A stretch of 64,000 nucleotides of DNA. It comes from Camelus dromedarius. Taxonomy: Eukaryota. The translations under genes and the position numbers were made by a program. Positions 4,615 through 49,695 of the stretch are shown one piece after another. Every line of letters starts with the position of its first letter. Within the stretch, counting starts at the first letter, position 1. The stretch spans positions 5,394,001 through 5,458,000 of the forward strand of contig NC_087436.1 in the NCBI RefSeq assembly GCF_036321535.1. The letters run 5' to 3'. The notes beneath the pieces were generated by a model that was given only the letters and a program-made list of their open reading frames with translations, was not told where the DNA came from and searched no databases.

Positions 4615-4775
4615 GGGGGAAGGTAGAGCTCAGCGGTACAGAGCCTGCTTAGCATGCACAAGGTCCTGGGTTCAATTCCCAGTACCTCCACTAAATAAGC
4701 AAATAAATAAATAAACCTAATCACGTCCCTCTAAAACAAACAAATAAGCGTTTTCAAATAAAATAAAATAAAAAA
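4615..4775 (+). mobile_element. Camelid tRNA-Ala-derived SINE (Vic-1-like)
   Basis: GGGGAAGGTAGAGCTCAGCGGT...GCTTAGCATGCACAAGGTCCTGGGTTCAATTCCCAGTACCTCC + (AAAT)n + ACCTAAT + A-rich tail. Confidence 0.88.
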
Positions 4776-5632: not shown

Positions 5633-6030
5633 TTGGAGTTTGGGATTCACAGATACACAATGCTGTTCACAAAACAGGTAAACAACAAGGGCTTACTGCA
5701 TAGCACAGGGAACTGCATTCACTATCTCGTAATAGCCTATAATGGAAAAGAATCTAGAAATATATATATGTATGTATATGTGTAATTGAGTCATTTTGGA
5801 GGGAGGGTAGAGCTCAAGTGGTAAGAGCGCATGCTTAGCATGCATGAGGTCCTGGGTTCAATCCCCAGTACCTCCTCCATAAACAAACAAATAAGCAAAT
5901 AAATCTAATTACCTCCCCCCAAAAAACAAAATAAATAAATACATTAAAAAAAATAACTGAGTCGTTTTGCTGTACACCTGAAACTAGCATTGTAAATCAA
6001 CTACACTTCACTAAAAAAAAAATTTTTTTA
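5633..6030 (+). mobile_element. LINE-1 3'UTR fragment interrupted by a SINE
   Basis: L1 tail (TTGGAGTTTGGGATT...AGCACAGGGAACT...) resumes after the SINE as ...TTTTGCTGTACACCTGAAACTA...polyA. Confidence 0.85.
5798..5953 (+). mobile_element. Vic-1-like SINE nested in an L1 tail
   Basis: tRNA-Ala head and AT tail. 15-bp TSD TAATTGAGTCATTTT (5783-5797) / TAACTGAGTCGTTTT (5954-5968). Confidence 0.92.
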
Positions 6031-8255
6031 AATCAACCATAATTCAAGAGGATGGCCAAAAATACCCACATGAGGGAGTGGAAAACGTGAAAGCCACAAA
6101 AAAAAGAAGTTGCAGCAAATCTGTGGACATTCCAGTGGGCCCTCCTTTAGCGTTCACCTGCTAAACTCCAGTCACGGACCCAGGAATCCTAAGATCACCC
6201 GCAAATCACTCTGAGCCTGTGCAGGGAGACAGCTCCACACTGCCCCCTGGTGCTGGCCGGCCCCGCGGCTCCAGGCTGGAGGGGACAAGGTGCGGGCAGG
6301 GCCTCTGCCTCCAGGGACTTCCGGCTGCCCACCCTACAAGCACTAAACAGAGCCTCATCCTCGCACGCCCATTCAGAAATAAACGGCTATTTTTAGCAGC
6401 ATGCATCTTAGGAATGGAAATGGCTGGGCCCCAGAAGGCAACAGACAGTGTGTGCCTGGCTTCCTGGACCCACCTCTGGGAGGGTGTGAGCCTCCCCCCG
6501 CCCACAAGGACCCTGGGGAAGTCCGGGAGCCCAGGCGGAGGTGATGATGCACGTGGATCACAAGAAAGAGGGACAAGGTCAGGGCGAGGACTGGCACAAG
6601 TCGCACAGGTAATCAGGAAGATGAGGGCCGATGAGTCAGAGCTGCAGGAGAAAGGACTTAGGACAGAAAAAGTCAAAAACAGAAGACAGAAGCCAGGGAG
6701 GGCGCGCATGGCCATTGTGGAACAGCTGGTCCGGTAAGAAGTGGTATTTTGAGCCGCATATTTTTTTTCAAAGGAGAAAGCACAAAGGTGGGTCGGGCCG
6801 TTTCCTGCCAGGGTCCACCTGGGGCGGGAGCTGCTGGGATCACTGCCCCCAGCCCTCCGCAGCTCCCGTGGCTGGAGACCCACCCGTGCAGGTGCCCCGG
6901 GCTGTCCCACCCAGCAAGCTGTAGGCAGCAACCGCGTTCACAATGGCTTTTAAACCCGGTACTGCTGCACATCCTGCAAATGCAAACTGCCAACAAGGTC
7001 CCAGGAATCCTTATGGTATCTATTTTTTGTACTCTAGAACTTTCTGCACTTTCTTAAAGATGAACACTTTAGAGAGTTTACGTTCAAAGCTGAAGCTCTG
7101 AAACTCCCCCAAAACATAAAGTTGCTGTGACTTAAAAACCCTACACACCGATCTGATTTCCTAAGTATGCCACTTGCGTTCATTTCGCCTGGTTAACGAA
7201 GGGACAGCATGCTGGCATTCCCAATAGATGGCATACAAAGCAGCGAAAAAACATATACATTTCTCTTCAAATAACACTGAGAGCCACCTCTGGTAAACAG
7301 GGTGTTTAATATTCTAATTTTAGACAGCCTACATTAACATGGTGGTTTCACAGGCAGGATAAGATTTCTATTTACAAAGCAGTCTCAAAAAATGACTTCA
7401 TAATGGGAGATCAAGAGGAAAAGAGTTTAGAAATTGAATGATGTAAATCATATGGGGTTCAGAGGCTAAGCAAATTACACACCCTGAAGCAGCCCTGGCT
7501 TTATGAAAGGAGCCTTTCTCCAGCTCCCCGCAATCCCAGCCCAAGAAAACTTGCATCTGAGAGTTTTCTAAACATTTCAGGTACACTTGAAAGCTGAAAG
7601 TAATTCTCATTTCCTCGGCAGGATTAAGTCGTTTCCAGCACACACAAAATAGCAGTCACTCACCATCACACAGAAAAACACACCACCAAAAAGGTGAGGG
7701 CGTCAGAGTACAAAGGCGCAATAAAAAAAGAAAGAAAAGAAAAGAAAAAAAAAATTTGGGCAAAAGAGAAATCCATGTTTTAATTCCCCCTGAAAATGTC
7801 CACACGGCCTCTTGACCTCTTTATTTCCTGGCTACTTACTGATTAACTGATGCCTTTCCATTGCGAGCGCTTCAATTAATGGGGCTGATACATGTCTCGG
7901 CAACTCCCCCAATAGAAAAAAGCTGAGGAAAGTCAAACATGCCAAGATTCATTCATTTTGGACTCCTTTTTAGAGGCACTTCTTGAACTTAGAACTCTGG
8001 CAAGGAGAGGTCCTGCAAGGCGCGTTAGGGCTGACGTCCCCCACCGACCCCAAAATGTCCCCTCTCCCGCTGCGCCTGCGGTGGCCCTCGGGTCACCCGG
8101 TCGGAGTCCGGCGGCCGCTTCCGAACTCGCAAACGCCGCGGATCCTCCCCACGTCGGTGCCCACGGGGGCGGGTGGGCGAGGGGACCCTCCCGCATCCCG
8201 CACGGGCGCACGAGGCGGCCTCCCGCAGCGGCGGGACCGGGGCCGGGGGACTCAC

Positions 8256-8373
8256 CGTTCTGCTCCTTGGTGCCAGAGAGCTGGAGTTTACTGCTCAGGT
8301 GGGACTCAGCCCGAGTCCCGGGTCTCTGGCCGGCCAGGGCGGATGTCAGCAGGAGAAGCCCGAGGAGGAGCAT
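8256..8373 (-). CDS. PDGFC: Platelet-derived growth factor C, coding part of exon 1 (signal peptide and N-terminus, 39 codons + 1 nt; phase-1 intron follows)
   Basis: Translates MLLLGLLLLTSALAGQRPGTRAESHLSSKLQLSGTKEQN-G, matching the mammalian PDGF-C N-terminus (human MSLFGLLLLTSALAGQRQGTQAESNLSSKFQFSSNKEQNG). Ends at a canonical donor AACG|GTGAGT (8256|8255-8250). Confidence 0.97.
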
Positions 8374-8855
8374 TGGGCTGGGCGGGCGAGCGCGCTCTCG
8401 GCGGGCACTGGGGAAGCCGGGCTCCGGGTCGGGCTCAGCGCCGCCGGGGGAGGGCCGCGCCGGGCTGGACGCGCCGCGCCTGCTCGGGCCGCAGGGGCTC
8501 GCGGGGTAGCTTCCACATAATCGCCTCCGAGACTTTCTCCGAGGGCCCGCTTGTGCGCCTCCAGTTTGTGAAAGGGATCAAAGCAAAACCTGGACCCGAA
8601 CCAGTTTCCCAAGGTTTCCACAAATCCTGCGCTCGGCCGACGCGGTGGGGGTGGGGAGGGGAGGGGTGCGGGGGGTGGGGACGCGGGGGGCCCGGGCGTG
8701 CCCACCCGTCCCCAGCCGGTCGCCGGGAGCACCTGTCAGCTGGGGGGGCCCGGAGCGGCGACCAGTCGAGGGTCGCGCGGAGCCGCCCGGAAGCCCAGGC
8801 GGCGGCGGGCGCTCTCCGATCGATAACAAAGCGGCGATCGATGCGGCTCCGCGGC
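8374..8855 (-). other. PDGFC: PDGFC exon 1 5'UTR (true 5' end uncertain, could extend to ~9300)
   Basis: Minus strand contains blocks I recognise from the human PDGFC mRNA leader, e.g. CCTTGGGAAACTGGTTC.GGTCCAGGTTTTGCTTTGATCC, CTGACAGGTGCTCCC and GAGCCGCATC...GCTTTGTTAT.GATC. Confidence 0.8.
8435..8518 (-). other. Upstream ORF in the PDGFC 5'UTR, 27 aa (MWKLPREPLRPEQARRVQPGAALPRRR*)
   Basis: ATG at 8518-8516 (gattATGt), TGA at 8437-8435, 61 nt before the main ATG. It is the only minus-strand ATG between 8374 and ~9530. Confidence 0.7.
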
Positions 8856-8860
8856 CCCCG

Positions 8861-8882
8861 CTCCCGCCCCGCCCCCACCCCG
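8861..8882 (-). promoter_or_regulatory. Overlapping Sp1/EGR1-type GC boxes next to the presumed proximal TSS
   Basis: + strand CTCCCGCCCCGCCCCCACCCCG = tandem GGGGCGGG boxes plus GTGGGGGCG. EGR1/Sp1 control of the PDGFC proximal promoter is established in other mammals. Confidence 0.6.
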
Positions 8883-11613
8883 CGGGGGAGGGGAGACGCG
8901 GGCGCGGCGCCGGGGCCGGGGGTCCCAGCCGGGCCGGGGGTGCCAGGCGCGGGGAGGCCGTGGGTCCCTCTCCCGCCCCGCGCTGCGCGGCTCCCGGCAC
9001 CTGGACGGGCCTCCGCGACCCCAGCTCCCCGCTCCGGGCGCGAACCCGCTCCGCGCCGCCGGGAGGTCGGGCTCCGGGTGTGCGGGGCCCTGCTCGGTGT
9101 CCCCTCCCCCGCGCCTTGGGCCTCGCGGCCGATCGGCCCCGGGCGGAGAGCAGGCCGAGCGCCGGGGCTCGGCTGTCCCCTCCCCTTCCCCACCGTCCGG
9201 GCCGCGGGGAGGAGGGGGCCGGGGGCCGGGCCAGGCGGGGCGCCGCCGCCCGCGGGAAGGGGGGGAGAGGAGGGAGGAGGGAGAGGAGGCCGGAGCCTGC
9301 GCGCCCGCCTGGGCGGCCGACCGCCCGTCGGCAGGTGCCGGCGCGGCCTGGGTACGAGGGGCCCCGGCGGTGGTGCGGCGCGGGCTCCCCTCCCGGGACG
9401 CCCTGGCCCGGGATACAGAGCACGCGTGGTGCTGCGGGGACCGCGGAGGTCAGAAGAAGTGGGAAGAACTTCCTGCCCCTCTACACCCCCGTCCCCACGC
9501 CCCCCTCGCCCGGGCTGGTCCTTCCCTCCCGAGGGCATCTCCATCCCCAAAGCGCTGGCGCGGGGCCCTTGGGCCGGACTTTCTGGCCTGAAGGAATACG
9601 GGAAACTGGAAGGCAAGGATTCCCCTCCGCTTTCCAGCTCTCCCGAGCAGGGAGTGGAAAAAGCAGAAGTCAAGACATAAGGCCAAAATGATAACCACGT
9701 CGTGCATTCATTCAGGGAACACCGCATTGACTTGACTGCCTCCTGGGTCAGGCAGTGTTCTGGGAACTGGGGCCGGAGTAGTGCACAGGGACCAAAGTCT
9801 CTGTCCGGAAGAAGCCTGCCTACAAGTTGGCCCGCCTCAAATTTACAGCAAGCGAGGGCCACGCAGAGCAAAGCAGAGCGAGCTTTGGTCAGCCGGTCAA
9901 TGCAGAAGATCAGACCAGGTCCGGTGCTCAGTACAGGTTGGGGGAAGGACGGAGCCTTAAGGTGTGGGCTGGAATCAGGGTGGAGTCTCGACTGTAAGGA
10001 GCTGCCCTTCCTGGCCTTGTGAGGCCATCTGTGAGTATTGAGGAGAGCTGCCCAGTAAAGGGGTCCAGGGGTGCTCAGACTGAGGCATCCTGTTAGTGGA
10101 CCAGACCAGGGCTCACCCTTCCTAGGTCTGGCGAAAGGGTCAAGCCCTCTTCCTGTGCCTGGACGCCCACTGAGACCAACCAACTTGTGACGTCCTAGTC
10201 CTCTTCCTTTTTTTTTCCCTTTTAAGGTTCTCCTCAGCTCAGCTCCTCCTTGTACCCTTGAGTCACCCATCCTATCCCTTCATTCTTACTCCTTTCCGCC
10301 TTCTGTCCTCAGACTGCAGGATATGAGGGCCCATAAATCAGGCCCAGTCTTTGACGTTCGAGGATTTACAGTGTAGCAGACACAAGCATTGTCATTTCAT
10401 TCACTTCAGCAGCAGCTCAGCACCACTGTGAATCCCTCTCGGCACAATAAATATGTTCCCAAAAGGTCTTGTAGATGTGGGACAGAGTGGGTGAGGGTTC
10501 CCGGTTCTGGTAGCATGAGACTTGCCATCTAGAAGACATGCTTTCTGAGCACATTTTCATCTATTTGTAATAAAACTCACTACTCCTCAGTCTTTTTAAC
10601 TTTGCAAGTTTAATTTTCTCATCGAGATGTTTCTTGGCCACCTACCGAGAGAGAGTGAGTGTGTGTGTGTGTGGCTGCAGATTTAATCCATTTGCTCTCA
10701 CAAGATTGTCAGGGTGATGACTACTCTTTATTCCGTATCATTTCATTTTGGCCAGAGCAGTGCCTGGCCCAGGGGGACAATAAATGAACACTCCTGACTG
10801 ACTGACAGGTTTCTTTATTGGAGTCACTTACATTCTCCCTGGAATTTCAGCGTGAAGGTTGTATTTGAAAAGTTACAGATGATCTAGCATAATACCTCAC
10901 CTCTGCCTTTCACCTCATCCACATTCTACAGATTGATTTGACAGCCGCCTTATAACTGAAGCCAGCCAGGTTCTCCCGAGTGACCCCCCCCAGACTAAAC
11001 TGTGTCCACGTTGCCTTGTTTCCTTCCACGGGACCCGCACTATTGTCTCTTGAACGGCCCTCCCCCTTGGCATAGTTGATTCTTTCAGCACGGTGTCCGC
11101 TGCCTGTCTCCATGCTCCATTTTGCTCATAAACCCTTCCTAAGAAAGTGAGATCCTTGCATCGAAAGTAAATTTTATATAATCCAGACTCTGCACAACTA
11201 CTAAACAAGACATTTTGAATGAATGTGGCTTTGTTTTGGCCTAAAGCATTTTCCTTGAGGAAAAGCATCTGTTCCACCAACCAGGAGAACATAATTGCGA
11301 GCATTCTTTGTGGTTTTCATGTTTTCTTAAACCTTAGGAGGGAGTGCCCACTCCAGCTGGATGCCTGCAGAGAGCTACCTGCAAAGCCCTGCTGAGGGAC
11401 ATGCTAGAATGTACTTGGGTATTAACCATGATAATTTGGGAGAAGGAGGGTGGGTGTCACTCCTAAAAAAAGGTTTTTTTGAAGTGAAATAAGATTTAAA
11501 GCCAATTCTCCATTCAATTAATCACTTAACACCCAGGAGGGCAGGAACCATGGGGCCTGACTTTTTCTCAGAAAATCAAATGTTAGAAGTTTTCTTGCTC
11601 TCTCTTCTGATTC

Positions 11614-16374: not shown

Positions 16375-16680
16375 TACAACTCTGTGAGTAGATACTCATT
16401 GAATCCCCATTTTTGAAAAAAATGGGGTAGGGGGAGTTAGGTTTATTTGTTTATTTTGTTTATAATGGAGGTGCTGGGGATTGAATCCAGGACCTCATGC
16501 ATGCAAAGCACACACTCTACCCCTGAGCTATACCCTCCTCCTCAAAGCTCCATCTTATAGTTGAGAAACTGAGCCCCTGAAAGGCTTTGTAAAACTGGAC
16601 CAAAGTCACACGTTTATAAGGACCAAAGGCAGAATTTGAATATGGGGAGCTGGTTTCAGAGCTGGCATGTTAATCCATCT
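16375..16680 (-). mobile_element. MIR remnant split by a SINE
   Basis: MIR core CCCATCTTATAGTTGAGAAACTGAG...CCAAAGTCACAC...GCAGAATTTGAA. Confidence 0.6.
16415..16540 (-). mobile_element. Vic-1-like SINE
   Basis: Reverse complement of the tRNA-Ala head (...GGGGATTGAATCCAGGACCTCATGCATGC...TGAGCTATACCCTCC) plus TTTA tail. Confidence 0.85.
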
Positions 16681-39638: not shown

Positions 39639-39772
39639 TTTTGGGGGGGTGGGAGGTAATTAGGTTTATTTATTTATTATTATTTTTTATTTAATGGAGG
39701 TACTGGGGGTCAAACCCATGACCTCATGCATGCTAAGCATGTGCTCTTACCACTGAGCTATACCCTCCCCCC
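39639..39772 (-). mobile_element. Vic-1-like SINE
   Basis: GGGAGGTAATTAGGTTTATTTA...GCATGCTAAGCATGTGCTC...CACTGAGCTATACCCTCCCC. Confidence 0.88.
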
Positions 39773-41514: not shown

Positions 41515-42590
41515 GAATAGACTTTAATTGTTTTGAGCAGTTTTAGGTTTACAGAAGAATTGAGCGGAAAGCACAGAGCATTTTCTTATACCCTTCCTCT
41601 CCCTACAGCTCTCCCTGCTATTAACAGCTTGGATTATTGTGTGAGATGTTACGGAGGCAGGATGTGTGTCATTATTTGTTTCTTTTTCTTTTTAAAAAAC
41701 TTATTTGTTTATTATTATTTTATTTTTGTAGGGGAGGTAATTGGTTTTTTTCAATTTATTTACTTATTTTCACTGGGGATTGAACCCAGGACCTTGTGCT
41801 TGCTAGGCACTTGGTCTACCACTGAGCTATACCCTCCCCCTTGTATCATTATTTGTTATTGATGAGCCAATATTGATGCATCATTGTGACTAAACTCCAT
41901 TGTTCACAGCAGAGTTCACTCCTTGTGTTGTGTTGTTTTGTAAATGTGTAATATTGCACATCCTCTATTACAGTCTTATACAGAGTAGATTCCCTGCCCC
42001 CTGGATTCTCTCTATGTGCTCTGCCTTTTCCTCCCTCCCTTGGGCCTTCCTTCTGAAGCCCTGGCAACCACTGATCATCATGGTTTTGTCTTTTCCAGAA
42101 TTTTCTATGATTGGAATCCTACAGTGTGTAGCCTTTCCAGATTGGCTTCTTTCACTTAGCAATATGCATTTAGGTTTCCTCCATGTCTTTTCCTGGCTTG
42201 ATAGCTCATTTCTCTTTATCACTGAATCAGATCCCATTGTCTGGATGGACCACAGTTTATTTATCCATTTACCTATCAAAGGGCATCGTGGTTGTTTCCA
42301 TGTTTTGGCAATTTATAAGTGAAGCTGCTTTAAATATTCATGGGCAGATTTTTGGGTGAACATACATTATCAGCTCATTGGGGTAAATACCAAGGAGCAA
42401 GATGGCTGAATCATATTTGTGAGTATATTTAATATGGTAAAATACTGCCAGACTGTCTTCCAGGGTGGTGGCACCATTCTGCACCTCCCTCTGAGTGATG
42501 AGAGCCCCTGTTGTTCCACATCTTTGTCAACATTTGGTGTTGTCAGTTCCTCAGCATTTAGTCATTTTCATAGGCACATAGTGGTTCTTC
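41515..42590 (-). mobile_element. Old LINE-1 (L1MC-like) 3' region
   Basis: GAGCAGTTTTAGGTTTACAG...AATTGAGCGGAAAG; ORF 41968-42279 shows L1 ORF2-end similarity (WINKLWSIQTM...IKRNEL). Confidence 0.8.
41681..41841 (-). mobile_element. Vic-1-like SINE nested in L1MC
   Basis: 16-bp TSD TGTGTCATTATTTGTT (41665-41680) / TGTATCATTATTTGTT (41842-41857). Confidence 0.9.
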
Positions 42591-49555: not shown

Positions 49556-49695
49556 GGGGCAAAGGTGGAGCTCAGTGGCAGAGCGCGTGCTTAGCATGTG
49601 CGAGGTCCTGGGTTCCATCCCCAGCACCTCCATTAAAAATAAACGAGATAAAAATAAATAAACCTAATTACCTCTCTCCAACAAAATCTTTTTAA
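49556..49695 (+). mobile_element. Vic-1-like SINE
   Basis: AGCTCAGTGGCAGAGCGCGTGCTTAGCATGTGCGAGGTCCTGGGTTCCATCCCCAGCACCTCC...ACCTAATTACCTC. Confidence 0.88.

What the first reader, a model, noticed from the sequence alone, without database searches (positions are those of the whole stretch)
8374..8518. 27-codon uORF just upstream of the PDGFC start codon, apparently conserved
Seen: the only ATG in more than 1 kb of minus-strand leader/promoter opens MWKLPREPLRPEQARRVQPGAALPRRR*, stopping 61 nt before the PDGFC ATG. Its context (A at -3) is better than that of the main ATG (C at -3, C at +4). From memory of the human leader, the same position reads MWKLPCDSLLPEQARRFHPSAAFPWRW*: same start, length and stop, about 17/27 identical, no indels despite heavy nucleotide change. 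Inference: PDGF-C output may be gated by uORF translation with leaky scanning or re-initiation, as is established for uORFs in the PDGFB leader, and possibly by a micropeptide.
Basis: partly seen in the sequence, partly recalled or inferred. Interest (0 to 1): 0.7.

Follow-up and report, generated by a model that had tools for sequence, protein, structure and literature searches.

The report
Known translated uORF before PDGFC
A short extra reading frame ahead of the growth-factor gene PDGFC matches one already known to be read by ribosomes in human; finding it intact in a probably distant mammal suggests it is older than published and probably acts as an ordinary brake on PDGF-C production.

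Summary
Observation confirmed: AUG at 8518, 27 codons, stop 61 nt before the PDGFC start. The human counterpart is already catalogued from ribosome profiling (c4riboseqorf109): same length, 17 of 27 residues identical, no gap. That table labels it primatomorpha-young and de novo, with negative PhyloCSF and no mass-spectrometry support. This genome is probably non-primate (tRNA-Ala SINEs, no 7SL hits; camelid by recall), so the frame looks older than labelled. The neighbouring human overlapping ORF labelled 'conserved' lacks its AUG here.
Peptide conservation is not shown: 17/27 equals neutral expectation, an off-frame scores 17/27 too, dN/dS is 0.56-0.76 (not significant), and start plus stop survive by chance in 15-29% of simulations. 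One hint points the other way: only 1 of 17 base differences hits a second codon position (p 0.0004-0.025, post hoc).
Most likely an ordinary repressive uORF working by leaky scanning onto a main AUG in conserved poor context (PMC8892498). Only two species were compared; repression is untested. The scan had not noted this before.

The parts
8435..8518 (-). AUG uORF, 27 codons plus TGA; counterpart of human Ribo-seq ORF c4riboseqorf109
   Evidence: human row; 17/27 identical by hand count; GC at codon positions 0.92/0.65/0.96
8374..8434 (-). 61-nt spacer between uORF stop and main AUG (66 nt in human, so the frame relation to the CDS is not kept)
   Evidence: human coordinates with main-AUG context
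8256..8373 (-). Coding part of PDGFC exon 1, from the poor-context main AUG to the GT donor at 8255
   Evidence: sequence; context; gene identity rests on the match of two leader frames to human PDGFC ORFs and on recall of the N-terminus
8524..8526 (-). AGG at the site where the human overlapping uORF c4norep174 has its AUG
   Evidence: human start lies 8 nt upstream of the uORF start
8540..8638 (-). Conserved leader block just upstream of the uAUG; holds UUG 8612, CUG 8604 and CUG 8564 in strong context; other mammal-like sequences stop the uORF frame at its last codon (TCG here)
   Evidence: 24 of 33 codons identical to 8 of 8 database translations tested; near-cognate codons
8000..9400 (.). 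CpG island covering promoter, leader, exon 1 and intron start
   Evidence: GC 0.71-0.85, CpG obs/exp 0.75-1.0 in 200-nt bins

Best explanation
A real AUG uORF, inherited from the common ancestor with human, that acts in cis as a brake. Scanning ribosomes meet the uAUG first (A at -3); part of them translate 27 Pro/Arg-rich codons and stop 61 nt short of the main AUG, and few re-initiate. PDGF-C is made mostly by ribosomes that leak past the uAUG and then accept a poor-context main AUG. The act of translation matters, the peptide little. Shown: the anatomy here, translation of the human counterpart, conserved poor main context. Inferred: translation in this species, repression, and the split between leaky scanning and re-initiation (from the general scanning model, recalled).
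For: Same start, length and stop as a human ORF catalogued from Ribo-seq. No gap in 84 nt, whereas the spacer beside it differs by a net 5 nt. Human leader of 491 nt covers the uAUG at -150. Three runs on record as RNA hold 0.96, 0.90 and 0.84 of 93 sampled words of 8260-9200 (contigs, no strand). Main AUG listed among conserved poor-context starts, Pdgfc/Pdgfd; C-3/C+4 here. This AUG is kept while the human AUG 8 nt upstream is absent. Peptide identity at neutral level fits a sequence-independent role.
Against: Start, stop and open frame survive 17 random substitutions in 15-29% of simulations (indels not modelled), so one species pair is weak. The published table calls the human ORF primatomorpha-young and de novo, which may mean it is broken in many mammals. 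The block upstream is as conserved or more (24/33 vs 17/27), so the AUG may ride on general leader conservation. No start-site or footprint data for this species. The second-position signal is not explained by a purely sequence-independent role.
Confidence: 0.55

Rival explanations
1. Bystander: an AUG embedded in a leader conserved for other reasons (promoter or RNA elements); it is translated as many uAUGs are, with little effect on PDGF-C and no selection on the frame.
For: Chance retention 15-29%; identity at neutral mean; off-frame identity equal (hand count); upstream block equally conserved; label 'young, de novo' and negative PhyloCSF; frame relation to the CDS not kept.
Against: No gap in the uORF against a net 5-nt change in the spacer; coding-like base periodicity confined to the uORF (0 of 903 overlapping leader/promoter windows as strong).
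Confidence: 0.25
2. Peptide-constrained uORF: the nascent or released peptide matters (stalling or micropeptide), and selection protected second codon positions while the locus drifted towards G+C.
For: Base differences to human fall 7/1/9 on codon positions 1/2/3 (hand count); p 0.005 uniform, 0.025 counting only G/C sites, 0.0004 if the ancestor was human-like. In the window alone 9 of 12 A/T bases sit at position 2; 5 of 10,727 stop-free shuffles match this. First five residues identical.
Against: Noticed after two null tests, on one species pair. dN/dS 0.56-0.76, Fisher p 0.37-0.77. Radical changes (R/W twice, R/C). PhyloCSF strongly negative, 0 MS studies. The adjacent ATG-less block shows a skew of similar strength in another phase (8 vs 1, p 0.04), so such skews may be common in short stretches.
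Confidence: 0.13
3. In this species the main transcripts start downstream of 8518, so the uORF is mostly outside the mRNA.
For: No start site was measured here; contigs cannot show a start or strand and may be DNA.
Against: Human leader is 491 nt and the human ORF has footprints; RNA runs hold most words up to 9200.
Confidence: 0.07

Closest known systems
Human PDGFC uORF c4riboseqorf109 (GENCODE Ribo-seq ORF; row in PMC10032668 supplement file 2)
   Same: Same gene, strand, 84-nt length, start and stop in register, 17 of 27 residues identical; this is its orthologue.
   Different: Labelled primatomorpha-young and de novo there, yet intact in this probably non-primate genome. Spacer 66 vs 61 nt. 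Human has a second AUG 8 nt upstream opening an overlapping ORF (c4norep174); here that site is AGG.
mRNAs with conserved poor-context main AUG, sensitive to start-codon stringency (Ivanov et al. 2022, PMC8892498; one passage and supplement rows seen)
   Same: PDGFC/PDGFD are on that list; the main AUG here has C at -3 and C at +4.
   Different: The Hox uORFs studied there start at suboptimal uAUGs (figure legend); here the uAUG has the better context, which predicts the opposite response. The passage seen does not mention a PDGFC uORF.
Conserved-peptide uORFs (CPuORFs; Takahashi et al. 2020, PMC7530721; listing only, supplement unreadable)
   Same: AUG uORF of similar size ahead of a regulatory gene.
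   Different: Amino-acid conservation above neutral and low dN/dS were tested and not met.
PDGFB/c-sis leader (recalled)
   Same: Long GC-rich leader with upstream AUG in a PDGF family gene.

Membership tests
Translated AUG uORF | AUG-started ORF that ends before the main AUG | tested here: met
Translated AUG uORF | Lies inside the mRNA leader | tested here: inconclusive
   Human leader 491 nt; RNA-run contigs hold 0.84-0.96 of words here but show no start or strand
Translated AUG uORF | Ribosome footprints in frame | not testable with these tools
   Human orthologue is in the Ribo-seq catalogue; no data for this species
Translated AUG uORF | Lowers main-ORF output | not testable with these tools
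   No report found
Conserved-peptide uORF (CPuORF) | Amino-acid identity above what nucleotide identity gives | tested here: not met
   17/27 against neutral mean 17.0-17.5, P(>=17) 0.61-0.73; off-frame also 17/27
Conserved-peptide uORF (CPuORF) | dN/dS clearly below 1 | tested here: not met
   0.56-0.76, p 0.37-0.77 (hand-counted changes); PhyloCSF negative. Second-position depletion is a contrary hint
Conserved-peptide uORF (CPuORF) | Peptide kept across many orders | tested here: inconclusive
   Two species only; searches found no further orthologue covering the uORF
Conserved-peptide uORF (CPuORF) | Repression depends on peptide sequence | not testable with these tools
   needs frameshift reporters
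ATF4-type delayed re-initiation leader (recalled definition) | Short permissive uORF followed by an inhibitory AUG ORF overlapping the CDS | tested here: not met
   Single AUG in 8374-9537; the human overlapping ORF starts upstream of the uORF and has no AUG here
Stringency-sensitive mRNA (Ivanov 2022) | Main AUG in conserved poor context | tested here: met
Stringency-sensitive mRNA (Ivanov 2022) | Hox-type uORF starting at a suboptimal uAUG | tested here: not met
   A at -3

The most novel reading that the evidence does not exclude
The PDGFC uORF dates from the common ancestor of primates and laurasiatherians, contrary to its published 'young, de novo' label, and is under weak peptide-level constraint visible as protected second codon positions during a G+C sweep. 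With a better-context uAUG ahead of a conserved poor-context main AUG, it would make PDGF-C output fall when start-codon stringency rises (eIF1 high) and rise when it falls (eIF5 high), the reverse wiring of the Hox uORFs.
Probability: 0.13. Interest if true: 0.6.

Novelty: already known. Interest (0 to 1): 0.3.

Why it matters
The element itself is catalogued in human and uORFs are common, so it is not surprising. What this genome adds is a counter-example to the age label: an ORF called young and de novo is intact outside primates, while its neighbour called conserved has no start codon here. If wider alignments agree, similarity-based age calls miss uORFs that keep start, stop and frame but not sequence. 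It also gives a cheap, direct test of translational control of a growth factor tied to fibrosis, angiogenesis and tumour stroma (roles recalled), for which no uORF experiment turned up in the searches run.

Tried and rejected
No whole genome is held for this window. Orthologous DNA: two scans of metagenome contigs and one of viral contigs gave 0 matches. Protein searches with leader frames: no candidate at 36-118 aa, 0 of 28 candidates scored for the third frame, 0 of 164 for longer proteins; the uORF peptide is not in the collection; no Atlas hit. The phmmer search gave 4 hits; 3 cover only the block upstream of the uAUG, and the fourth (P0004, 37%, repetitive) was dropped as chance. Of cluster members, P0009 and P0010 do not end in the shared tail and were left out (8 of 10 used). 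Read-level mapping of the leader was not obtained, so start sites remain unmeasured; 11 runs marked 'RNA?' were not counted. RNA structure over 8374-8640: z 0.37, nothing beyond composition. The 614-codon frame as a real gene: rejected, since no coding-like periodicity outside the uORF and related sequences stop 8 codons before the uAUG. PMC8013793 mentions PDGFC for an unrelated reason (passages). Earlier scan notes: none on this element.

Full report
1. Observation. The minus strand carries ATG at 8518, 27 codons and TGA at 8437-8435, then 61 nt to the main ATG at 8373; exon 1 ends at 8256 before a GT donor. Contexts are A-3/T+4 and C-3/C+4. No other minus-strand ATG lies between 8374 and 9537, but shuffles give 2.7 on average and 395 of 2000 have at most one, so this is ordinary for the CpG island.

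2. The human counterpart is published. [quoted passage not shown] It also lists c4norep174, an overlapping ORF of 162 nt starting 8 nt upstream, labelled 'conserved'. By hand count the window uORF matches the first at 17 of 27 residues with no gap. The human leader is 491 nt (NM_016205.2), so the uAUG at -150 is inside it. That the id prefix marks ORFs seen in more than one study is recalled.

3. Which mammal. Rfam on 8400-64000 gave 6 matches at E up to 0.1: four tRNA-like, two weak miRNA, none 7SL-derived. ARAGORN reads three as tRNA-Ala, and self-comparison shows them as dispersed repeats of about 130 nt with A-rich tails (6 of 21 segments printed). Alu and B1 are 7SL-derived and dense (established), so primates and rodents are unlikely. 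The SINE resembles camelid vic-1 and the other repeat a cetartiodactyl L1 end; both names are recalled, and one search showed only that the term vic-1 occurs in PMC3531059. A colugo, which is inside Primatomorpha and lacks Alu, is not excluded by any search. I put a laurasiatherian at about 90%. If so, the ORF labelled young is intact outside its assigned clade, while the ORF labelled conserved has AGG in place of its AUG.

4. How strong is the conservation? The two overlapping human peptides fix all but 5 of the human bases (all first positions, resolved towards the window), giving 17 differences in 84 nt, 15 of them A/T in human and G/C here (hand count). With 17 random substitutions, start, stop and open frame survive in 15-29% of runs under three models, and mean identity is 17.0-17.5 of 27 (indels not modelled). 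The off-frame, which has no AUG here, also matches at 17 of 27 (hand count). dN/dS is 0.56-0.76, not different from 1. The 33 codons ending 8 codons before the uAUG match 8 of 8 tested database translations at 24 of 33 (taxa unknown), so the leader is conserved in general and the uORF not more than its flank. In favour of selection on the frame: no gap in 84 nt while the spacer changed by a net 5 nt.

5. A contrary hint. The differences fall 7, 1 and 9 on codon positions 1, 2 and 3. P for at most one at position 2 is 0.005 (uniform) or 0.025 (G/C sites only); if the ancestor was human-like, 14 of 17 A/T sites changed at positions 1 and 3 against 1 of 10 at position 2 (p 0.0004-0.0008). In the window alone the uORF has GC 0.92/0.65/0.96; 0 of 903 overlapping leader/promoter windows, 0 of 173 intron windows and 8 of 53,923 others are as skewed, and 5 of 10,727 stop-free shuffles. 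These are one signal seen two ways, found after two null tests. Just upstream, 8 of 33 codons need a second-position change against 1 of 26 in the uORF (p 0.064), but that block is itself skewed in another phase (8 vs 1, p 0.04), which warns that short stretches give such patterns. Several replacements are radical and PhyloCSF is negative. I treat it as a lead.

6. Mechanism. PMC8892498 (one passage and supplement rows) lists Pdgfc/Pdgfd among genes whose main AUG has conserved poor context. Here a better-context uAUG stands ahead of it. By the scanning model (recalled), part of the ribosomes start at the uAUG; a 27-codon GC-rich frame and a 61-nt spacer allow only partial re-initiation; the rest leak to a weak main AUG. 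The leader has no fold beyond composition (z 0.37). The ATF4 layout is absent. Repression is inferred, not shown. For this species the only transcript evidence is that 3 runs on record as RNA, from 2 studies, hold 0.96, 0.90 and 0.84 of 93 words of 8260-9200; contigs show neither start nor strand, and no read-level view was obtained.

7. Literature. Searches for PDGFC with uORF (5 papers listed), PDGF-C with untranslated region and upstream open reading (1 listed), and the two ORF ids or 'PDGFC uORF' found no functional study in the held library, which lacks most subscription journals. The CPuORF supplement of PMC7530721 and the tables of PMC13275300 (listing only) were not seen and may already score this ORF. 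The PDGFB precedent was seen only as listings.

8. Verdict. A real uORF, orthologous to a catalogued translated human uORF; most likely an ordinary cis brake (0.55), possibly a bystander (0.25), less likely peptide-dependent (0.13). New here are the apparent greater age and the second-position hint, both from one species pair. Interest 0.3.

Noticed in passing
window 8435-10270 (-) and 8055-9680 (+): Very long stop-free frames across the CpG island: 614 codons in frame with the uORF and 559 antisense (0.1% and 1.9% of 1000 block shuffles). No coding-like periodicity outside the uORF; related sequences stop 8 codons before the uAUG, where this genome has TCG. Any upstream non-AUG start in this frame (GTG 8878, ATC 8824) would end at the same stop.
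   Followed up: partly
window 8540-8638 (-): Leader block at least as conserved as the uORF, with UUG 8612, CUG 8604 and CUG 8564 in strong context; 8612 and 8564 open a frame that overlaps the uORF and the main start. Candidate non-AUG uORFs or an RNA/promoter element.
   Followed up: partly
window about 8820-8835 and 8730-8745 (-): Two short motifs kept in database translations of related leaders; the second contains E-box and TGACAG-like sites (motif names recalled). Probably promoter elements.
   Followed up: no
window 8374-8577 (-): The frame of the human overlapping ORF is here in frame with PDGFC and open for 68 codons before the main AUG, but holds no AUG or listed near-cognate start, so no N-terminal extension is expected.
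   Followed up: yes
window 16466-16537, 39695-39767, 49561-49632, also 4615-4747, 5795-5951, 41704-41841: ARAGORN calls three of these tRNA-Ala genes; they are copies of a tRNA-derived SINE with A-rich tails.
   Followed up: partly
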